Source: the human T2T-CHM13v2.0 reference genome, Homo sapiens. From it: 64,000 nt of DNA. The DNA is taken from the NCBI RefSeq assembly GCF_009914755.1, contig NC_060940.1; one strand, 5' to 3'. The position numbers were made by a program, and so were the translations under genes. Positions 8,735 to 61,025 of this stretch are shown one piece after another; the stretch's first letter is position 1, and every line of letters begins with the position of its first letter. Below the pieces are notes generated by a model. It searched no databases. It was not told the origin of the DNA and saw only the letters and a program-made list of their open reading frames with translations.

Positions 8735-9390
8735 GTCAGGTGCACACAGTGATGATAGTTCCGGGAGGTCAGGTGCGCGCGGTGATGACAGTTCCGGAAG
8801 GTCAGGTGCACGCGGTGATGACAGTTCCGGGAGGTCAGGTGCACGCGGTGATGACAGTTCCGGGAGGTCAGGTGCGCGCGGTGATGACAGTTCCAGAAGG
8901 TCACGTGCGCGCGGTCGTGACAGTTCCAGAAGGTCAGGTGCGCACGGTGATGACAGTTCCGGGAGGTCAGGTGCGCGCGGTCGTGACAGTTCCGGGAGGT
9001 CAGGTGCGCGCGGTGGTGACAGTTCCGGGAGGTCAGGTGCGCGCGGTCGTGACAGTGCCGGGAGGTCAGGTGCGCGCGGTGGTGACAGTGCCGGGAGGTC
9101 AGGTGCGCGCGGTGGTGACAGTGCCGGGAGGTCAGGTGCGCGCGGTGGTGACAGTGCCGGGAGGTCAGGTGCGCGCGGTCGTGACAGTGCCGGGAGGTCA
9201 GGTGCGCCTGGTGATGACAGTTCCGGGAGGTCAGGTGCGCGCGGTGATGACAGTGCCGGGAGGTCAGGTGCGCGCGGTCGTGACAGTGCCGGGAGGTCAG
9301 GTGCGCGCGGTGGTGACAGTTCCGGGAGGTCAGGTGCATGCGGTGATTGTTCCGGAAGGTCAAGTGCATGTGGTCATAGTTCCAGAAGGT
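8735..9390. repeat. 33-bp CpG-rich minisatellite, ~20 copies (ggtgatgacagttccgggaggtcaggtgcgcgc)
   Basis: Direct inspection; 11-aa periodicity in the ORFs. Confidence 0.95.
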
Positions 9391-13862: not shown

Positions 13863-13908
13863 TGCAGGCTCCCCCACCCTGAGAATTCCAGTTAAGACTC
13901 TGGAGTCG

Positions 13909-14390
13909 GAGATGCTTCCTGGAGGGCTCAGTCCTGGAGTCAGAGGAGATGCTTCCTGGAGGGCTCAGTCCTGGAGTCAGAGATACTTCCTGGAGGGCTC
14001 AGTTCTGGATTCAGAGGAGATGCTTCCCAGAGGGCTCAGTCCTGGAGTCAGAGATGCTTCCTGGAGGGCTCAGTTCTGGATTCAGAGGAGATGCTTCCCA
14101 GAGGGCTCAGTCCTGGAGTCAGAGATGCTTCCTGGAGGGCTCAATCCTGGAGTCAGAGATGTTTCCCGGAGGGCTCAGTCCTGGAGTCAGAGATGCTTCC
14201 TCGAGGGCTCAGTCCTGGAGTCAGAGATGCTTCCTGGAGGGCTCAGTCCTGGACTTGGAGATACTTCCTGGAGGGCTCAGTCCTGGATTCAGAGGAGATG
14301 CTTCCCAGAGGGCTCAGTCCTGGAGTCAGAGATGCTTCCTGGAGGGCTCAGTCCTGGATTCAGAGGAGATGCTTCCTGGAGGGCTCAGGT
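13909..14390. repeat. 34/37-bp minisatellite, ~14 copies (gagatgcttcctggagggctcagtcctggagtca[gag])
   Basis: Direct inspection. Confidence 0.95.
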
Positions 14391-24305: not shown

Positions 24306-25795
24306 TGAGATGTCGCGGTAGCAAAAATAGAGAAAGGGTAGAAAAAAGGGACATTAAAATTAAAAGCAAAACCACAAGAAGGGAAAGACCGCAACTCGGA
24401 CAGCCCAGCGACTTCCAAGTCCTCTCACAGAAGAACCACACGATTGGGTATCACTCACAGTTTGCCTTTTTTTCTGGGTAATGTTTTTTGGATTTTAGCC
24501 AAAATTCTTTGCTTGTATAACACTCTGCTGTGTGGCATGGCAGAAGGAGGCCAGCACGCAGCCCCTCCAGCTCCACGTGGAGACAGAAGGGATCCCGGCA
24601 CATCAGTGGTAACAGCGGACGTTGTCCTCGTGGTCACACGTCCCGTCTTGGGTGTGGATGGAGGGCAGCCCGGGGCAGAGCCTCAGCCCCGCGGCCCCTG
24701 AGTGGCAGGGCTGACTCCCGTCGACACGAGCTTAGAAAGTGGATTCACTGCTTTCTCTGTCTAGAACAGACGGGTGACAAGTATGGGCAGGAGGCATGGG
24801 GCAGGGTGGCCCACCCCAGTGGGCAGTAGCCTGGCCTTTTTCTGTGTGAGATCTGTGCTGCACACCTGAGGGAGGGGGAGGGATCGGCCACCTCCTCCCT
24901 GTGAGACGGATGCAGGTCCTTCCCTCTTCTCGGCACTGCCCCCGGCCTTCCATGAGAAGCCGACTCCCCACACCGAGTTTTAAAGCAAAGCCCTTTTCTT
25001 CTGCTGCCCACTCACTGTGGGTCCCATTCGGCTGTTTCCCCCACCAGACCCCAGGGAAGCCGGGGCCCACTCCGATCCGCCTGGGCTCAGCTAAGCACGG
25101 AAGCCAAGGGGGCTGTGCCGTGGAGCTGGGCTCGCGCCGGGGCTCCGGGTGTGTGCGCTTGGCGTGCAGGGTGGACGCGTGGGGTTCCGTGTCCCCAGCA
25201 GTGAGGGCCCTAGAGGACGCCTTCTCCCATGGTTACTGATCTCCACGGGTTTTCACATCTCTGTACTGTGCCTGCCTCAACTTCCCCTAACAGATATGCA
25301 TATTCCTTCCAGATGCCTCAGTGCTACACCACAGTGGGCCTGGTCCCAGGACAGGAATGCGGTTCAAACCCAGTGGCTTGAAACTTCCTGAGAAACTGTA
25401 GCATATCCAGCCCCCTAAAATGTACAATGTAACTTGTTCAGTCCAACAAAAACAGGTTCCTTATGTTTCTGCCTTCTCCACCAGGGTCGCTCCATCACCC
25501 AAACAAAAGAACAAGGTTTGCCAGGATGTCCGAGTGCCCCCTGGCCCTGGCTCTCGTGTGCATGGACGTGCCTGAGGGGTCCGGGCACGGCCATACGCAG
25601 GACCCCTGTGCCCGGGGAGGCGCTGCAGGGATTCCCCATCCGGTCGTCTTGGGGCCAGCCCGTCTTATGGACTCTGCCTTGCTTTGCTTATGTTTAGCTG
25701 TTTCTCTGCTACCTTTCGAGCAGACTTCTTTACTACACTGCACTGGATTGCTATATTTTTAACCAGAAATAAACTAAAGATTAGAGCATGTTCCA
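24306..25795 (+). other. JPH3: JPH3 3'UTR (~1.5 kb)
   Basis: Between the stop codon and AATAAA plus U/GU-rich downstream element; cleavage position approximate. Confidence 0.85.
25768..25773 (+). terminator. JPH3: JPH3 polyadenylation signal AATAAA
   Basis: AATAAA followed ~30 nt later by ttcagttttattgttttcc; upstream TGTA motifs near 25421-25431. Confidence 0.9.
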
Positions 25796-26107
25796 GTTAA
25801 ATTCAGTTTTATTGTTTTCCGTTACATGTTCACTCCCTGTTCCTTCTCGCCGCCTGGTCTGGTGGGGGCATAGGAGAGGGAGGGAGGACTGAAGGTCATA
25901 CATTTCTGATAATGTCGCTTTCTAAAGGGCTGTGACATTTTTGTACATCTTTTCCATCTTTTAGTAGCAAGTGGTTGCTGCAGACCAGAAGTGAACCAAA
26001 TAAAGACTCCTGCTCTGTGCAGCTCTCAGACTCCTGCTCTGTGCAGCTCTCACAAAGATCACAGCTGCTTTTGTACATTCCAGTAACTGCATGACACAAA
26101 ACGGTAC
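25790..26107 (-). pseudogene. Candidate terminal exon of a minus-strand transcript or fossil gene
   Basis: tgtttcctgctcacag|G acceptor, ~70-codon open frame to TGA at 25896, then AATAAA at 25813-25808. Confidence 0.5.
25808..25813 (-). terminator. Minus-strand polyadenylation signal AATAAA, convergent with JPH3's
   Basis: tttatt on the + strand; its downstream region on - (tctttagtttatttctggtt) is U-rich; a good acceptor lies upstream at 26107. Confidence 0.6.
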
Positions 26108-26843
26108 CTGTGAGCAGGAAACACATTCACACCATGAGACATGCACAGAGGCAGGTGTCCCTGAGCGAAGTTGTGCAGAGATCTAGGCCTAGGGGCAGTC
26201 AGCTCCTGCCGCAACACAACCTAGAAAACCAAGGCGAGAACGGCCCCTTGCCTTCCAGCAGCGAGGGCAGAGGGCAAAGCCACTTCCCTGTGAATTCCAG
26301 GAGGATTCAACCAAGGCTAAAATGCCCCGGGTCTGAGAGAATCGAATCTTTAATTGGTTTCCACATGGGGTGATTAAGGAGAAGGCTGCTTCCCGCCTGT
26401 CCGGAGCCTCGGCCTTCCCTGACAGGCACGCAGTCCCTCCGCCCAGGCCCAGGGGACCTGCTTCCCTGCACACAGTCGGGCAGGGCAGGACAGCATGTGC
26501 CCGGCTGGCTGCTGCTGCATGGAGAATTTGACGAGTTTTCATTAACCCGAGAGCAGCCTGGTGAGAGCCATTTTCCGCCCCAATAGCTTCTTCATGTTTC
26601 ACCTGTGCACCCGAGGCCAGGAGGAAGTGGTGGCATCCCCTGCAGACAGCAGCGCGGTCTGCGGGGGGTGGGTGTGGACAGCCCATGGGCCAGGCTGGCG
26701 TCTCCCCACCCTTACAAGCCTGCAGACAGGTCCACCTCTGGCCCAGGAACAGATGAGCCCCGCCCTGGAAGAGCTGGAGAAGACCCTCTGCCCCGGGGCC
26801 TCTGGTGAAACTGTCTGTGCCCACGGCTGGCCTGTTTTACTTA

Positions 26844-27389
<546 letters not shown>

Positions 27390-28102
27390 TCAGCTCGCTC
27401 CCCTGTAAGGCCCCAAGCCAGGCCATGGGCCAGCGGTCCCCGGGACGTCCATACTCCAGGCTCTAACCACACTTGCTCCTTTTCACTTGTAGAAGCACAT
27501 GGCCACCGCGTCTCACGGAGGGCCATCAGTCACCCCCAAGGCGCTGCAGACCTAAAGTGTGGAGAACTCGAGGGAAATGAAATGTTTTTCATACTTTTGC
27601 AGTTCAGGTTCTTGGTTGTCCTTTACTCCTTCCCCGGGAGGTTTTATCGACAGCTGGACCCGTCGGACTGAAGAGACCCTGAGGCCTGTGGTGGTCCCCA
27701 AGCTGCTGGCGCTCCTGGGCCGTGTGCGGGTGGCAACTCCCCTCACAGTCTTCATGGGACAGTGCGGATTTCACCTCATACGTGCGACAGACGCTCTGCA
27801 GGAGACAGCGGAAGGACCGTCTCCCTCCTCTAGGTCATGCTCACTTTCTCTGACTCTTCCGAAGTTTGATCTGACTGTTCTTGCCTTTGGTCTTGGAAAC
27901 TTGACATCAAGGTGCCTATTAGATTTTCAGTCGTCGCCTTCCATAGCTGCAGGTGCTGTGACTGTTTCTGCCTTCAGCCGGCCGACAGCACCGGGCGCAA
28001 CAAGCTTCAGGACATCATGATGCCGCCCTCCTGCAGTACCTTTAACCTCGCCCGGGCCAGGGTCTGCCTCCAGCCCAGGACCAAGACCCCGATTCCAGAT
28101 AA

Positions 28103-28552
28103 GGCGGAGGGAGGAGGGCAGGGGGTAGAGGGAGGAGGGCAGAGGGTGGAGGGAGGAGGGAGGAAAGAGGGTGGAGGGAGGAGGGCAGAAGAAGAGGGCA
28201 GAGGGAAGAGGGTAGAAGGAAGAGGGTGGAGGGAGGAGAGAAGAGGTGGAGGGAGGAAACAGGGTGGAGGGAGGAGGGAGAACGCTGGAGGGCAGAGGGA
28301 GGAGGGCAGAGGGCGGAGGGAGGAGGTTGGAGGGCGGAGGGAGGAGGTTGGAGGGCGGAGGGAGGAGGTTGGAGGGCGGAGGGGAGGAGGATGCAGGGCA
28401 GAGGGAGGAGATTGGAGGGCGGAGGGAGGAGGTTGGAGGGCAGAGGGGAGGAGGTTGCAGGGCAGAGGGAGGAGGTTGGAGGGCGGAGGGAGGAGGTTGG
28501 AGGGTGGAGGGAGGAGGTTGGAGGGCGGAGGGAGGAAGCTGGAGGGCGGAAG
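28103..28552. repeat. Purine-rich ~21-bp minisatellite/low-complexity tract (ggagggaggaggttggagggc)
   Basis: Direct inspection; almost pure G/A strand. Confidence 0.9.
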
Positions 28553-31500
28553 GAGTCAGTCAACTCAGGCACCTGGTTGGCTTCTCTCGCGCCCAGGCCG
28601 CGTGTCAGGTGAGGCAGTCGGTACGCAGAAACTGAGGAAGCGACTGTCCCCAGGTGCCAAGGAGGTTGCTGGCTCAGCCTTCAAAACAAGCAAGGAAGAG
28701 TGCAGCTGCATTTGTTGAAAAAAAGCCAGGCTGTATTTTCACCATGTGCCCCCTGCCTTGAAAATGAACTACGGAATGCACAGCGCGTGGGGGGTGGGTG
28801 CTGGAAAGGGACAGAACAAGGGTCCGTGGCAACCACAAAGCACCTGCAGGCCAGCGCTTCCCGATGAGCAGAGGCGGGGGCTGGCACCTGGCGCTGGCTG
28901 CAGACGGGAAGTCAACGCCACCAAAGCAGAGGACCTCAGCCACCCAGGTTAGCAAGAGGGTAGCAGGGCGCTCAGGAACAGGTGAAGCCATACTGTGGAG
29001 AGAAGCTGAATGCTCCTCCCAAGCTTCAGCCCACCCATTAGGAACAAATGCTCTTTAAGTCTGTTTCTTCATGAAACCCAAAGTGGAAGTGCCTGAGCTG
29101 TGAATGCGGCCACAGCGTTCATGCCAGCTTGTTCCCAAGCCTAGGAGAAGCAAGCAGCCCCGTGACGGGCACAGGCCACAGTGTGGGCGTGAGCTCACCC
29201 CATGTGTAGCCGGGTGCTGGGCCCAGGCCGCTGGGTTTCTGGGGTCGGCAGAGTGGGCCAGGCAACAACCTCACATGCCTACCTCACTGCCACTCGTCCG
29301 CCTCGTCCACTCCTGGCATTTGGGATAAACATCCTGTCTCAGACACACCCTTCTCGTGCGCCCATGCCACCTGCTCAGGCCTATGCCGCCCGCCCGTCCT
29401 CCCAAGCGTGCACACCCGTCCGCCATCCTTCTCCCGTCTGTGCCCCATGGGACAGAGGCCTCCAGCTGCACCACCACTGCTCGTTAACAGCTGCCATCCA
29501 CACCGAGGAAGCCTCTTCGAGCCCAGGGAGTGGAGGATGGGGCTCTGCTGTGCACGTGCTCCCTCGGGCCCTCCCAGCAGTGGTAGATGGGGCTCTGCTC
29601 TGTCCTTCTTGGTCATCTTCCTGGGCCTGCAACAAAGCTCAGCCCAGCAGCCAGGCAGCTCCTTACAGAGGCTAACGCCGGGTCTGGTCCCTGGTGACCC
29701 CAGGCTGCTGTGAGAACTTGTGACCCCCGAGATCAGAACAGCCTTCGGGTCCCAGAGCTTCCCGCATGATCGTGTGTGGAACAGACCGGGAGATTCCAGC
29801 AGATATGGGTTCAACGTTGACCACCAACCTTGACAACCCAAGGGCTGCCTCCCCTGACCATGACAGCCAACTCCTCCTCCACAGTGGCTCTGCCAGGCGC
29901 CGAGTCCATAAAGGGCAGCCACTGTTTGGCAAGGAGGGCCGGTCTGCCGGGGGCTCCCAGGCCCTGGGGTCAGGCTGAGAGAGGAAGATGGGTGTGAGGG
30001 TGCAGGGGCAGGGGGGCGGGCCCTGCAGGGCAGTGCCTGGCCCGTCCTGCACCCCCAGCCTGGGAACCCCCGGCTTTCTCGCTTGGGCCTCTGGGGAGCC
30101 CGCGTCCCCAAATGTAGCCACATCAGAGCACACTTCTCCGGCAGCAACTTCCCAGGCATGTCCGTGGCCTCCTCGGGGGCAGGCGCCCCCTCCTGGACGC
30201 TGAGCTGACCTCTCTAGCAGGACTCTGCTCATCTGCACCATTTGCCATTTCCACAGAAACCCTGTCCCCAGAGCCCGGCGGAGAAAAAAACCACAGGGGC
30301 CTCTCTGCTCAGGGGAGCCACGCGGAAGAGGCACCCTCGCTCCAGCTGCCAAAGCAACTGAGCCTGCTGCAAACATCTCTGTGAACTCGGACAGGAAACA
30401 GTGTTAACCTGTGTTTCCTTCCAAGTCGGCCCTGGCGCATGTGAACTGCTTGCTAATACTGTGTACAATCACGCCGTGCAATGACAGAGAGAACTTTTCT
30501 TATTGATGAAGTGGTTTAAAAAGTTACCCTGAGCCTTTTTTCTTTGCTTTTAAGCTGGAAAGATAGCTTGATTACTTATGAAATGAAAAAAAGTTTTCCT
30601 AAATGAATGTAACAGTTTAAATCATACTGTTACGAAAACAACACTGTCAAGATTAAAAAGAAATTCTGCTCCTTTTAGTAATAAACAATGTCGTGTGACA
30701 CTTTGGAACGCTTCTCTCGTTACAAACCAGCGTCTTTACTGAAGGTCCTTCCGCTGCAGAGCTGCGCAATGGATGTGTGGACAGAGCTAGTCGGCACGTG
30801 GAGGCTCTCCTGGTTTTCGAGCAGGAAACGTGCTGTGAGCAGGAATCGCGAGTGAGTTCCATGGCGTCCCCGGGTCAGCGCGCGTGCAGGAATCGCGAGT
30901 GAGTTCCATGGCGTCCCCGGGTCAGCGCGCGTGGGGTCCTGTCTCGCTGGCTCACCACTGGTGGCCAGGGCATGTCTCCCCCAGCCCTGAGTCTCCGCAG
31001 TGGTGACCAGGGCATGTCTCCCCCAGCCCTGAGTCTCCCGGCAGTGGAGGCAGCGTGGGCACAGGGTTTGTCACAGCCTGTAAGTGAATGGAGGACACAA
31101 AAATAACCAGAGAGGCAGGCTCTGCCCTCCGGGAGTGCACAGGCGGTTTTTAAAATGTGTGCGTTCATGTAATTAAACGTCTCCGTTTGTTTCTCAGGGA
31201 GTGGTTACTCAATTTCTTCCCAGCCAGAGCTTTGTAAACCTGCGCTTCTCACCCCTCAGTGAAGCCTGAGTCCAGCCTCTAAAGGTGGGTCCCCTGGGTG
31301 GGCTGCAGCCAGTGGGGGCTTGGAAGGGCTCTGAAGGTTGAGACAAGGAAAACGGGCGTGAGCTGGACTCAGGGAAGCCGGGTCACCGTGGTACCTGCAC
31401 TGTGGCCCTTGGCCATGACAGTGTGTCAGCTTCCGGCAGGGACTGCTTGTGTGCCTCGGGACACCAGTGACCAGGTGTGGCCAGGCCCCAGATGGCATTG

Positions 31501-34829: not shown

Positions 34830-35474
34830 CTAGGTTGGGAGTTAGCGCACCACAGCCTTCGGGGGCAAGGAGGCCGCAGCGCTGAAGCCAGGAGGAGCTG
34901 GATGGGGACACCTGGTGGCAGCCATGTGGGGACGTTGGGAGCCCTCGCCCTCCAGCCTCCCTTCCTGTCGCTTTGCAAATGCTAATCCTAAACCCTAAAC
35001 CCGACTGGGACAGGGACAGGGATGGTCCCACCACAGCCTCCCAGAGACCACGCGGCGGCAGGTGGCTCCCAGGAGTGAGGCCGCTGCACACGAGGAGCCC
35101 CCACCACGAGACCCCCGTGTGCAGCCAGCCAGCGGTGCTTCACGTGAATGAGAACCGGGAAGGTGTGCACTGGCCCTGGTCTGCTTTTCAGTTTCAGGCA
35201 TCAGAGGCTGATCCCAAGTGTGAATATGGATGGGCAGTCAGGGCCCTCTTCTGGTTTTGCAGAAGGAAAGGCTCACAAAGCACAGCATATTCCGGGGTTT
35301 CGGGCACAGAAACCTGCTTCTCGAGGGTCCTTCGTGTCCAAGGTTCCACCCTCCAGTGTGGGGTGGTCTCGCCCTAGGCCCAGCCCTGGCCCGGGGCAGA
35401 GGCCCCGGGAAGACTGCGGTGTGCCTAGGGCCACACAGAAGACACCCTCCGCGGTGGTCTTGTTTCAAGTCCAA

Positions 35475-35480
35475 TTTATT
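35475..35480 (-). terminator. KLHDC4: KLHDC4 polyadenylation signal AATAAA
   Basis: tttatt on the + strand ~240 nt into the terminal exon; GU-rich sequence follows on -. Confidence 0.85.
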
Positions 35481-35559
35481 TCACACAACACACAGGCTGC
35501 TGAGGGAATCCACCTGCACTGCACTCAGTTGAACTTCCGGCCCAGTGCCGCGTCAGAGA

Positions 35560-35721
35560 CTAAACCATGGGAGAAAGTTCACACCCTGGCCTGGGCCACC
35601 CACCTTCAGCTCTCTCCTGTGCGTCAGGACGCACGCTGGCCCCAAGAGCTTCACTCAACACGGCTGGGTCCTGGGCGGACGTGGGCACAGCACTTGCCAG
35701 GCGCCCCTGGCAGGGGCTCTT
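35560..35721 (-). pseudogene. Decayed coding remnant (DUF4110-like KLHDC4 C-terminus) within the 3'UTR exon
   Basis: Successive frames read EEPLPGAPGK / RTQPC*VKL / ASVRPDAQER / VAQARV*TF, colinear with the recalled non-primate KLHDC4 tail. Confidence 0.7.
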
Positions 35722-35996
35722 CTGATACGCAAGGAGGAAGGAATGAGAGAGAAACACATTCAGCCGAGGGGGAGGCCCGTGCAGGAGGGGTAGAGAGAAC
35801 ACCGGGTTTTCAGGGAAGACCTCATCAAAGAGCCCACAGGCACACGGCACTCATTAGCAAGCTGCCCAAATTACTCCACACACCAACGTTTTTAAAAAAT
35901 TTACAAAGCTGAATTCCAATAAGCATCCGATAAACATGAAAAGCCTTTCACGAACACCCAGCAGCCGCGCCACCCGCCAGCCCGAGCCCGCTCACC

Positions 35997-36389
<393 letters not shown>

Positions 36390-38251: not shown

Positions 38252-38838
38252 CTAAAGTAAAAGAGCGAGGCGGACTGTGGGTCCAGAAACGAACCCGCGT
38301 GTTTTTCCAATTTCCAGCCCAGGTGCCACCACACGTCAAAAGCAGCTTCAGGAGTTTGCAACCAACAGCGACCAGCCCTCCTTGGCCCTTTCTGGGTCCG
38401 GCTGACCTGGTACACTCAGAGACCCTGAGGCCAACTGGGGGATCCCCTTCTGGGACTGTCACCCACTGCTGTGCCTGTGCTGGGCTGGCCCTGGACAGCA
38501 GCTATGCTCACGTGGACAGTAAAGATGGTGCCGGAAACCAGGGAAGCTCAAGGGTCATAACACAGGCTGGTCCACACCAGGACCTCCAGCAAACCCTTCT
38601 CACACAGAGGGCCGGGGAGGTCCCGGGCACCTCAGCCCAGGGCAACTGGCTTCTGAGGTAGCAGCCCCGCCAGCATCCAGGACAGACTAAGGGGACCGTG
38701 ACCAAGGGCTCTCCAAGCCTAGTCACCCAGGACAGTCAGAGACGGAACCCTCGCCCCTCTTGAGAGAGCTCATGGGCTTTGGGGGCCCCAATACCAAAAG
38801 GTGCTGGAGGAAGGCAGTGGTGGCAGGGACCCAAGTTA

Positions 38839-43449: not shown

Positions 43450-44045
43450 TCTATGTTCTCACAGATATTGACACAGACTTCGGCCACGCTACTGTGGTCG
43501 CAGGGGTAGTGACACAGACTTCAGGCATGCTCTGTGCCTCATGGATACTGACACAGACTTCAGGCACGCTCAGTGCCTCGTGGATATTGACACAGGCTTT
43601 GGGCACGCTCTGTGTCTCATGGATATTGACAGACTTTGGGCACATTCTAAGGTCTTGTGGATATTTATGCAGAATTTGGGTAGGCTCTATGTCTCGTAGA
43701 TATTGACACAGACTTCAGGTACGCTCTATGTCTCGTGGATACTGACGTAGACTTTGGGTACACACTATGGTCTTGTGGATATTTATGTAGACTTTGGGTA
43801 CGCGCTATGTCTCGTGGATATTGACGTAGACTTTGGGTACACGCTATGGTCTTGTGGATATTGACGTAGACTTTGGGTACGCGCTATGTCTCGTGGATAC
43901 TGACATAGACTTTGGGTACACGCTATGGTCTTGTAGATATTGACGTAGACTTTGGGTACACGCTATGGTCTTGTGGATATTGACGTAGACTCTGGGTACG
44001 CGCTATGTCTCGTGGATACTGACGCAGAGTTCGGCTATGCTCTAT
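43450..44045. repeat. 39/40-bp minisatellite, ~15 copies, inside L1M (ctatgtctcgtggatattgacgtagactttgggtacacg)
   Basis: Direct inspection; alternating 39/40 dimer at the 3' end. Confidence 0.9.
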
Positions 44046-45009: not shown

Positions 45010-47432
45010 ATGTACTGTATTTACTATAATGGAAAAAAAACATTTTCCTTTTGAAACATGCAAATGATCCACTGTCCACAGAGACTTCATATTTCCACCT
45101 GGGCCTGAGTGTCCTAAAACTAAGAGGGCTCCACATTGGCCATATGGAGAGTGACCTGAATCTCAGGAAGTGAAAACTGAGTCTGGGTCTCTTTTGTTCT
45201 CCTTCTGGAAACATCTGTGCAATTCAAGTGATGCAGTTTCTGCACATTACAGACAGTGATTGAGACTAGTCTCTTTTTGTAACAGGTTGATAGAAAATGG
45301 CTGTCATTTCCATGCCTGCTTTTCCAAACCTAAGGGCCTAGCATTATTGTGAACTGAATTGACACCCAGAGACTTCATCTGCTGGGGGGACAAGGAAGGA
45401 ATTCAGTGACGTCTCTATTTGTCATCAGAAACTCAAATCGCTGCTTAGCTTCGGCAGGTCTCTGTCTCCTTGTAGTACCCTGCACCTGTCTATATGAACC
45501 GTCTTGTTTTGCTGACAGCAACATTGTCTTCTTAGAATTAACAGCCTATGGGGGAATGTTTTATGCTACAATATTTAAGTACTTCCCCTCCAGACCATGC
45601 AAGCCAGAGAGGTGGAGCACTTCACAAGGCCTGATCTGCTCACACGGGTCCACAGGTTCCTTCCGGCACACAGCTGGCTGGCCACACCCTCTAACAGGGC
45701 CCATGGTTCGACCTCCCCAACAGCTTCTAACTCCTCCTTCTACAGCAGTTTCTTTTCTTGAAGTGTTGTGACTTTTCCCAAAATCCAACCTGTCTGTCTT
45801 CAAAGAAAGTAACAGACAACGGCCTTGTTGCCCTCTGTTTTTCTGGATCACCTGTGCTCAAGCTCTATTAGCATACACCAAACCAGCTTTACATTCACGC
45901 AGTCTTTCCACAAAAACCGATTCGCTCTCGCTCTCCCTCTCCCTCTCCCTCCCCCTCTCCCTCCCCCTCCCTCTCCCTCCCCCTCTCCTCCCCCTCCCCC
46001 TCCCTCTCCCTCCACAGTCTCCCTCTCCCTCTCCCTCTCTCTCCACGGTCTCCCTCTGATGCCGAGCGGAGGCTGGACTGTACTGCCGCCATCTCGGCTC
46101 ACTGCAACCTCCCTGCCTGATTCTCCTGCCTCAGCCTGCTGAGTGCCTGGGATTGCAGGCACGCGCCGCCACGCCTGACTGGTTTTTGCTGGAGTGCAGT
46201 GGCGTGATCTCGGCTCGCTACAACCCCCACCTCCCAGCCACCTGCCTTGGCCTCCCAAAGTGCTGAGATTGCAGCCTCTGCCCGGCCGCCACCTCGTCTG
46301 GGAAGTGAGGAGCGTCTCTGCCTGGCCGCCCATCGTCTGGGATGTGAGGAGCCCCTCTGCCCGGCTGCCCAGCCTGGGAAGTGAGGAGCGCCTCTTCCCG
46401 GCCGCCATCCTGTCTGGGAACTGACGAGCGTCTCTGACCGGCCGCCCATCGTCTGAGATGTGGGGAGTGCCTCTGCCCCGCCGCCCCGTCTGGGATGTGA
46501 GGAGTGCCTCTATCCGGCCGCGACCCCGTCTGGGAACTGAGGAGTGTCTCTGCCCAGCCGCCACCCTGTCTGGGAGGTGAGGAGCGTCTCTGCCCGGCCG
46601 CCCGGTCTGAGAAGTGAGGAGCCCCTCCGCCCGGCAGCCGCCCCCTCCGGGAAGTGAGGAGCGTCTCCGCCCAGCAGCCACCCCATCCGGGAGGTGGGGG
46701 GCAGCCCCCGCCCGGCCAGCCGCCCCGTCTGGGAGGGAGGTGGTGGATGCCTCTGCCCGGCTGCCCCGTCTGGGAAGTGAGGATCTGCCCGGCCGCCACC
46801 CCGTCTGGGAGGAGTACCCAACAGCTCATTGAGAATGGGCCATGATGATGATGGTGGTTTTGTCAAATAGAAAAGGGGGAAATGTGGGGAAAAGAAAGAG
46901 AGATCAGATTGTTACTGTGTCTGTGTGCAAAGAGGTAGACATGGGAGACTCCATTTTGTTCTGTACTAAGAAAAATTCTTCTGCCTTGGGATGCTGTTAA
47001 TCTATAACCTTACCCCCAACCCTGTGCTCTCTGAAACATGTGCTGTGTCCACTCAGGGTTAAATGGATTAAGGGCGGTGCAAGATGTACTTTGTTAAACA
47101 GATGCTTGAAGGCAGCATACTCGTTAAGAGTCATCACCACTCCCTAATCTCAACTACCCAGGGACACAAACACACGGAAGGCTGCAGGGTCCTCTGCCTA
47201 GGAAAACCAGAGACCTTTGTTCACATGTTTATCTGCTGACCTTCCCTCCACTGTTGTCCTATGACCCAGCCAAATCCCCCTCTCCGAGAAACACCCAAGA
47301 ATGATCAATAAATACTAAAAAAAAAAAACAAAAAACTGATTCGGCTACGGTAAAGTAGTAAACAGAATCTGCATGAATTTTTGGAGAAGTTAGACTTCAT
47401 TCTAATACATTATTGCTGGAATGCAAAGACAT
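45010..47432 (-). pseudogene. Candidate fossil exon interrupted by the SVA
   Basis: ctctctctcag| acceptor at 47432; frame rejoins across the SVA target-site duplication; 3' boundary uncertain. Confidence 0.4.
45925..47330 (+). mobile_element. SVA retrotransposon, full-length architecture, older subfamily (SVA_A-C-like), antisense to KLHDC4
   Basis: (CCCTCT)n head, antisense Alu-like region, GC-rich VNTR, SINE-R, AATAAA and poly(A); TSD AAAAAC(C/T)GATTCG at 45912-45924 and 47331-47343. Confidence 0.95.
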
Positions 47433-53813: not shown

Positions 53814-54815
<1,002 letters not shown>

Positions 54816-60542: not shown

Positions 60543-61025
60543 CGTGAAAAGGCAGGTCCAAAGCAAATCCTATCCCAGCTTCTACAGGTAAAAAGGCAGG
60601 TGCAAAGCAAATCCTATCCCAGCTTCTACAGGTGAAAAGGCAGGTGCAAAGCAAATCCTATCCCAGCTTCTACAGGTGAAAAGGCAGGTGCAAAGCAAAT
60701 CCTATCCCAGCTTCTATAGGTGAAAAGGCAGGTGCAAAGCAAATCCTATCCCAGCTTCTATAGGTGAAAAGGCAGGTGCAAAGCAAATCCTATCCCAGCT
60801 TCTATAGGTGAAAAGGCAGGTGCAAAGCAAATCCTATCCCAGCTTCTATCGGTGAAAAGGCAGGTGCAAAGCAAATCCTATCCCAGCTTTTATCGGTGAA
60901 AAGGCAGGTGCAAAGCAAATCCTATCCCAGCTTCTATCGGTGAAAAGGCAGGTGCAAAGCAAATCCTATCCCAGCTTCTACAGGTGAAAAGGCAGGTGCA
61001 AAGCAAATCCTAACCCAGCTTCTAC
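60543..61025. repeat. 44-bp minisatellite, 11 copies (ggtgaaaaggcaggtgcaaagcaaatcctatcccagcttctaca)
   Basis: Direct inspection. Confidence 0.95.

What the first reader, a model, noticed from the sequence alone, without database searches (positions are those of the whole stretch)
35560..35999. KLHDC4 is C-terminally truncated: its 3'UTR exon is a fossil DUF4110-like domain
Seen: the stop TGA sits 1 nt before the last exon junction. Reading on through the splice gives EEPLPGAPGK..., then after three successive single-base shifts RTQPC*VKL, ASVRPDAQER and VAQARV*TF. Recalled knowledge (unverified): non-primate KLHDC4 ends ...HPEVAPGE..YLSRTEQHWLKLARSHMGPDAKEKKVLKVAQAMAKTF (DUF4110, also in yeast Kel3). 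Order and spacing match, including TGG->TGA at the conserved Trp. A stop this close to the final junction escapes NMD, which explains how the loss of an ancient domain was tolerated and why the gene has an intron in its 3'UTR.
Basis: partly seen in the sequence, partly recalled or inferred. Interest (0 to 1): 0.72.

Follow-up and report, generated by a model that had tools for sequence, protein, structure and literature searches.

The report
KLHDC4 tail domain lost repeatedly
The last exon of human KLHDC4 no longer codes for protein but still holds the decayed DNA of an ancient 56-residue end domain that mice, lemurs, birds and fish keep; monkeys and apes likely lost it in their common ancestor, and camels, toothed whales and guinea pigs likely lost it separately, so the human and mouse proteins are not equivalent.

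Summary
Confirmed and extended. The stop codon (35999-35997) ends 1 nt before the last splice junction. The last exon (35721-35558) is the best match in the 64-kb window to a DNA-level profile of the 56-residue C-terminal domain of other mammals' KLHDC4 (z = 12 against 500 shuffles). None of 23 simian records has the domain. Lemur, mouse, bats, horse, pig, hippo, elephant, platypus, birds, frogs and fish have it. It is a short form of DUF4110, predicted as a two-helix hairpin, and is found in 63 of 83 distant full-length orthologues.

Corrections: there are four indel sites (-1, -1, -5, +4), not three single-base shifts; a capuchin record suggests the Trp-to-TGA change is late, not causal; NMD escape explains why the mRNA survived, not why the domain was dispensable.

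New: different lesions in camelids (frameshift, 4 species), toothed whales (early stop, 2 species) and guinea pig point to at least four independent losses in placentals. The 4-nt duplication in the fossil likely created a splice donor used by annotated, probably NMD-prone transcripts. The domain's function is untested. Not found in 10 literature searches.

The parts
35996..36112 (-). Penultimate exon: acidic tract, now the last coding exon
   Evidence: RefSeq row in the task; translation
35997..35999 (-). Stop codon TGA, ending 1 nt before the last junction; a Gly codon in lemur, horse, cat and dog records, Arg in tarsier (inferred from peptides)
35722..35995 (-). 274-nt GT-AG intron, formerly inside the coding sequence, now in the 3' UTR
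35558..35721 (-). Fossil of the 56-codon C-terminal DUF4110-like domain
35681..35721 (-). Fossil segment 1, in the ancestral frame after the splice; a 1-nt deletion follows
35646..35675 (-). Fossil segment 2, keeps the near-invariant R-T; TGA at 35657-35655 replaces the near-invariant Trp
35611..35640 (-). Fossil segment 3 (loop and start of helix 2); a 5-nt deletion follows
35597..35604 (-). Tandem GGTG duplication; forms the alternative donor AAG|GTGGGT at 35604/35603 used by annotated transcripts
   Evidence: annotated exon 35604-35721
35558..35599 (-). Fossil segment 4 (end of helix 2), with a further TGA at 35581-35579
35475..35480 (-). AATAAA polyadenylation signal, 17 nt before the annotated end at 35458

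Best explanation
The last exon of human KLHDC4 is the decayed former coding exon of a 56-residue DUF4110-like end domain, which likely stopped being translated on the simian stem when a stop codon arose in the last full codon of the exon before it. Shown: stop position, homology of the exon, four indel sites and two more stops, absence of the domain in all simian records, presence in lemur and most vertebrates. Inferred: a stop 1 nt from the last junction escapes nonsense-mediated decay (established 50-55 nt rule, recalled), so the Kelch propeller plus acidic tail kept being made; the exon stayed because it carries the poly(A) signal, and its codons decayed neutrally. The domain is likely an accessory two-helix protein-binding module on a nucleolar, ribosome-biogenesis-linked scaffold (about 0.4 likely for this function). 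Selection on it probably relaxed in placentals, which let it be lost at least four times by different lesions.
For: Homology. Simians: 0 of 23 records have the domain and 22 of 23 end at the acidic stop; apes, Old World and New World monkeys are all represented. Timing: a Cebus record translates this exon off-frame at 74% identity to the human frame-0 reading (E 1e-12), crossing the first indel without a shift, so that indel is shared; its residues at the Trp site fit an intact TGG. Other losses: camelids switch frame near column 15 (31 bits in frame, then 72-73 bits off frame; best of 100 shuffles 19 or less; 4 of 4 species scored); porpoise and narwhal stop after column 21; guinea pig stops near column 42 and has lost the Trp. 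A tree built without the domain puts these four groups in separate places, whales as sister to hippo and guinea pig with degu and porcupine, all of which keep it. Relaxation: identity of the domain to platypus is 0.49-0.78 in 20 placentals against 0.62-0.80 in 7 other tetrapods, while the last Kelch blade stays at 0.75-0.87 in 19 of the 20. Fold: helices 14-33 and 39-57, mean pLDDT 87.8. Accessory: 20 of 83 distant full-length-like orthologues lack it. Function hints: nucleolar location (PMC12035522, passages); listed among genes with the ribosome-biogenesis-type promoter motif (PMC2570694, Table 1).
Against: Only the human DNA was read; all other species are predicted protein records clustered at 90%. 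Records can lack the domain for annotation reasons: horse P0039 and P0071 and rhino P0060 lack it though the same species have it in other records, and mouse lemur and Prolemur records lack it. The Cebus record is a partial model on a 4.6-kb contig. The order of the stop and the first frameshift is not resolved. Tarsier is unresolved, so the loss could be haplorhine. Protein-level tests alone do not single out the exon. The relaxation figures are raw identities, not dN/dS, and overlap (anole 0.62). Nothing here tests the domain's function.
Confidence: 0.88

Rival explanations
1. Adaptive loss: removing the domain changed the protein's partners or stability (the new end is an acidic tail) and was favoured several times in placentals.
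For: At least four independent losses; the domain is otherwise kept across eukaryotes with near-invariant E, R, T, W (0.89-0.98 of 91 rows); several distant orthologues also end at the acidic tract.
Against: Gradual decay with the frame still open in pangolin, ruminants and horse fits relaxation better than sweeps; the loss lineages share no obvious trait; lesions fall at scattered positions.
Confidence: 0.15
2. A frameshift inside the last exon came first and left a junk tail; the upstream stop was fixed afterwards because it removed that tail.
For: The first indel is shared with Cebus, so it is as old as the stop within the resolution here; camelids show this intermediate state today.
Against: No direct evidence for order; camelids have kept a frameshifted tail in all 4 species without an upstream stop, so such a tail is tolerated.
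Confidence: 0.35
3. The exon is kept because it now has an RNA-level job: the new donor sends part of the transcripts to a distant 5.3-kb exon, putting the stop 119 nt before a junction and so likely into NMD, which would tune KLHDC4 levels.
For: Annotated exon 35604-35721 and terminal exon 25791-31077; the donor reads AAG|GTGGGT with the duplication and AAG|GTGGCC without it.
Against: No expression or conservation data; new donors in neutral sequence are common noise; ancestral bases are inferred from protein records.
Confidence: 0.12
4. Chance resemblance: the UTR exon is unrelated to the domain.
For: tblastn and Pfam miss it; in-frame protein profile not top-ranked.
Against: Best of 424 tiles, z = 12, starts at the exon's first base, collinear over 56 codons; independent off-frame record ranks it first.
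Confidence: 0.02

Closest known systems
DUF4110 (Pfam PF13422)
   Same: Sits at the C-terminus of KLHDC4-type Kelch proteins after the acidic tract; vertebrate domains match model positions about 4-63; a profile seeded with vertebrate domains picks up the same segments that pass Pfam's cut-off in distant orthologues.
   Different: The vertebrate form lacks the last third of the 95-position model and scores 12.7-25.1 bits against a cut-off of 27; the human copy is non-coding and gives no Pfam match.
Unitary pseudogenes and gene losses on the primate lineage (PMC2864566, PMC2134963; search listing and abstract starts only)
   Same: Lineage-dated stop and frameshifts followed by neutral decay of once-conserved coding DNA.
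   Different: Only one terminal exon died; the gene still makes a protein, so whole-gene loss screens would likely call it intact. The listing shows 0 occurrences of KLHDC4 in both main texts.
Convergent molecular decay across placentals, such as ENAM (PMC2728479) and L1TD1 (PMC4161310); search listing and abstract starts only
   Same: Independent lesions in several placental orders.
   Different: Here a domain, not a gene, is lost, and no matching trait is known.
KLHDC2/3/10 C-degron receptors of CRL2
   Same: Same six-blade propeller class; among the top fold matches.
   Different: KLHDC4 is reported not to bind CUL2 or CUL3 (PMC12035522, passages); the lost domain has no clear match in the PDB.

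Membership tests
DUF4110 (PF13422), ancestral vertebrate domain | Score at or above Pfam's 27-bit cut-off | tested here: inconclusive
   Mammals and sturgeon 12.7-17.2 bits in 4 of 6 domain-bearing proteins, no match in 2; tarpon 25.1. Precomputed lists give PF13422 for 3 of 45 rows and a tinamou row.
DUF4110 (PF13422), ancestral vertebrate domain | C-terminal position in a Kelch protein | tested here: met
   Residues 522-571 of 577 in platypus, after the propeller and acidic tract.
DUF4110 (PF13422), ancestral vertebrate domain | Homology to segments that pass the cut-off in distant orthologues | tested here: met
   Iterated vertebrate-seeded HMM finds 84 of 148 unnamed proteins, best reversed-sequence E 0.23; 5 of 13 scanned pass 27 bits at 32.6-96.3.
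DUF4110 (PF13422), ancestral vertebrate domain | Covers the whole 95-position model | tested here: not met
   Vertebrate matches end at model position 58-63.
DUF4110 (PF13422), ancestral vertebrate domain | Present in yeast Kel3 | not tested
Decayed (pseudogenised) coding exon | Orthologous position and sequence homology to a coding exon of other species | tested here: met
Decayed (pseudogenised) coding exon | Disabling lesions | tested here: met
   Upstream stop, four indel sites, two internal stops.
Decayed (pseudogenised) coding exon | Neutral evolution after the loss | not testable with these tools
   Needs orthologous simian DNA.
NMD-escaping stop | Stop within 50-55 nt of the last junction | tested here: met
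   1 nt for NM_017566.4; 119 nt for transcripts using the 35604 donor. The rule itself is recalled.
NMD-escaping stop | mRNA level unaffected by NMD knock-down | not testable with these tools
   Needs expression data.

The most novel reading that the evidence does not exclude
A pan-eukaryotic binding module of an uncharacterised nucleolar scaffold has been shed at least four times in placental mammals, and possibly eight or more (carnivores, lagomorphs, squirrels and beaver, moles, armadillo), because its partner or binding surface changed in the same lineages; in humans the dead exon has also gained a splice donor that routes transcripts to decay. The loss pattern would then identify the partner by co-loss.
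Probability: 0.2. Interest if true: 0.75.

Novelty: new member of a known kind. Interest (0 to 1): 0.5.

Why it matters
Human and mouse KLHDC4 differ by a whole conserved domain, which bears on reading mouse Klhdc4 results (such as the ATF4 link in PMC8578388) across to the human cancer studies. It gives a datable origin for a 3' UTR intron and for a new splice donor. Repeated independent losses turn a domain of unknown function into a testable one: look for a partner lost or altered in the same lineages. It also shows a class of loss that tblastn and Pfam miss and whole-gene screens would likely pass over.

Tried and rejected
Plain tblastn of 8 intact domains against the window: no hit on the exon at E up to 10. 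Pfam on the three exon frames: 0 families. In-frame protein-profile scans: exon outside the top 6 with mammal or non-mammal profiles, rank 2-3 of 428 with softer penalties; the alpaca off-frame peptide ranked it 1 (tied) or 3. The higher-scoring site near 38581 was inspected and shows no convincing motif; it did not appear among the top DNA-profile hits. Runner-up DNA hits at 27905 and 28082 lie in tiles holding a purine-rich tandem repeat and are taken as composition effects.

Fold searches with the domain model: no Foldseek match at E 0.001, best VIA Z 5.0, a common helical hairpin; PDB sequence search best E 0.45; full-length model matches only Kelch propellers. Protein atlas: no usable hit. 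Complex prediction of domain with the rest of the protein gave no answer (0.12, mark 0.34), which says nothing either way.

Losses not claimed: 0 of 15 named carnivoran records have the domain and none of the lagomorph, squirrel, beaver, gopher, mole or armadillo tails scored above shuffles (38 of 45 records scored, 3 lacked the anchor, 4 had tails too short), but absence from a predicted record is unreliable. The mole-rat record is off-frame over the whole exon and may be a splice artefact. The tree tool's count of 3 changes ignores the intact rows and was not used.

Read-through or frameshifting that would restore the human domain was rejected: three stops and four indel sites. Earlier scan findings were not available. 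Supplements were not read; tables of gene-loss screens could list KLHDC4.

Full report
What is in the sequence. On the minus strand the annotated KLHDC4 exons splice into an open frame that ends in an acidic tract and a TGA at 35999-35997. One base follows, then a 274-nt GT-AG intron and a 264-nt last exon with AATAAA at 35480-35475.

What other species have. A search with the preceding exon found 327 relatives and listed 120. Of these 120, 40 carry a whole C-terminal domain, 6 a part and 74 none. The domain aligns almost without gaps over 56 columns from lemur to sturgeon. None of the 23 simian rows has it, and 22 end at the acidic stop; they cover apes, Old World and New World monkeys, and one is an unnamed record identical to the human query. 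A search with the domain found 132 proteins and listed 120: rodents, bats, horses, rhinos, pig, ruminants, hippo, elephants, lemur, bilby, platypus, birds, reptiles, amphibians, fish and a chimaera; no named simian, carnivoran, whale, camelid or lagomorph (candidates were capped, so absence is weak evidence).

Is the exon that domain? A nucleotide profile built from 26 non-simian mammal domains scored best at this exon among 424 tiles (61 bits; next 36) and 12 standard deviations above 500 dinucleotide shuffles, none of which reached it. The alignment starts at the exon's first base and runs to 35558. A blind mole-rat record that reads the exon off-frame, real sequence with no back-translation, has its best hit at 35717-35571 and ranks it 1 of 428. 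Against this, protein-level tests are weak: tblastn with 8 domains missed it, Pfam saw nothing, and in-frame profiles ranked it outside the top 6 or at 2-3. That is what a long-decayed exon broken into short frames would give, and it may be why the fossil went unnoticed.

Lesions and timing. The alignment needs a net 1-nt loss twice, then a 5-nt deletion and a 4-nt duplication. There are two internal TGA codons, one at the near-invariant Trp. A partial Cebus model translates this exon off-frame at 74% identity to the human reading and crosses the first indel without a shift, so that indel predates the split of New and Old World monkeys; its residues at the Trp site fit TGG, so that stop is likely later. 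The upstream stop codon is Gly in lemur, horse, cat and dog records and Arg in tarsier, judged from peptides. The loss therefore likely lies on the simian stem. Tarsier is unresolved, and the order of stop and first frameshift is unknown.

Other losses. Scoring 38 of 45 chosen tails in three frames showed a frame switch near column 15 in alpaca and three camels, a stop after column 21 in porpoise and narwhal, and a stop near column 42 in guinea pig. A tree on the region before the domain sets these groups and the simians in four places, with domain-bearing neighbours such as hippo, degu and porcupine. Different lesions in different clades mean independent events. Carnivores (0 of 15 named rows), lagomorphs, squirrels, beaver, moles and armadillo are candidates only, since horse and rhino also have records without the domain. 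Identity of the domain to platypus is 0.49-0.78 in 20 placentals and 0.62-0.80 in 7 other tetrapods, while the Kelch blades stay steadier, which suggests relaxed selection in placentals.

What the domain is. Pfam's DUF4110 matches it under the cut-off in mammals; distant orthologues pass at the homologous segment (5 of 13 scanned). Among 148 unnamed distant relatives, 83 look full-length and 63 of these hold the domain; E, R, T and W are nearly invariant. Many of the 20 without it end at the acidic tract, as the human protein does, though some may be incomplete models. It is predicted as a two-helix hairpin after a long flexible linker (pLDDT 87.8 alone; same helices in the full model). It is a short form of DUF4110, covering about the first 60 of 95 positions.

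How it likely works. A stop 1 nt from the last junction falls inside the 50-55 nt window that escapes NMD (established rule, recalled), so the shortened protein kept being made. The exon stayed because it ends the transcript. This explains the UTR intron and the survival of the mRNA; it does not explain dispensability, since the camelid, whale and guinea-pig lesions lie in the last exon and needed no such position. The function is inferred only: KLHDC4 is listed as nucleolar and of unknown function (PMC12035522, 12 of 16 passages), appears among genes with a ribosome-biogenesis-type promoter motif (PMC2570694, Table 1 passage), and lower mouse Klhdc4 induces the ATF4 pathway (PMC8578388, passages). 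An accessory binding module on such a scaffold is the best guess, at about 0.4.

A by-product. The 4-nt duplication turns AAG|GTGGCC into AAG|GTGGGT, exactly at the donor of the annotated exon 35604-35721. Transcripts using it place the stop 119 nt before a junction and would likely be NMD targets. Whether this is regulation or noise is open.

Novelty. Ten searches found no paper with DUF4110, none with KLHDC4 plus truncation plus orthologue, and no title on this loss among the 40 of 113 KLHDC4 papers listed. Passages of PMC4816273 and PMC12963635 do not mention it. The library lacks most subscription papers, no supplements were read, and the length difference between human and mouse is plain in public databases. 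Verdict: a real, apparently undescribed case of a known kind of event, made more interesting by its repetition. Interest 0.5.

Noticed in passing
window 25791-25801: The far alternative last exon of KLHDC4 (-) and the last exon of JPH3 (+) overlap tail to tail by 11 nt, each with its own AATAAA (25813-25808 on -, 25768-25773 on +).
   Followed up: partly
window 53818-54575: A 24-bp tandem array (31.6 copies, 96% matches) starts 3 bases after the donor of KLHDC4 exon 54579-54738; length variation could affect splicing.
   Followed up: no
window 45925-46810: A CT-rich hexamer run followed by a 40-bp GC-rich array inside a KLHDC4 intron; the layout resembles an SVA element (recalled).
   Followed up: no
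window 8735-9345, 13900-14388, 43464-44034, 60544-61024: Further long tandem arrays with 33-44 bp units.
   Followed up: no
window 35718-35721: Tandem CAG-AAG acceptors 3 nt apart at the last exon, both annotated; in the ancestral coding exon they would have added or removed one residue.
   Followed up: partly
P0027, P0094, P0368, P0036: Pangolin, ruminant and horse domains are still open but drifting (identity to platypus 0.49-0.60), possibly losses in progress.
   Followed up: partly
P0176, P0211, P0215, P0260, P0293 and others: Unnamed distant orthologues that end at the acidic tract like the human protein; the same truncation may recur outside vertebrates.
   Followed up: partly
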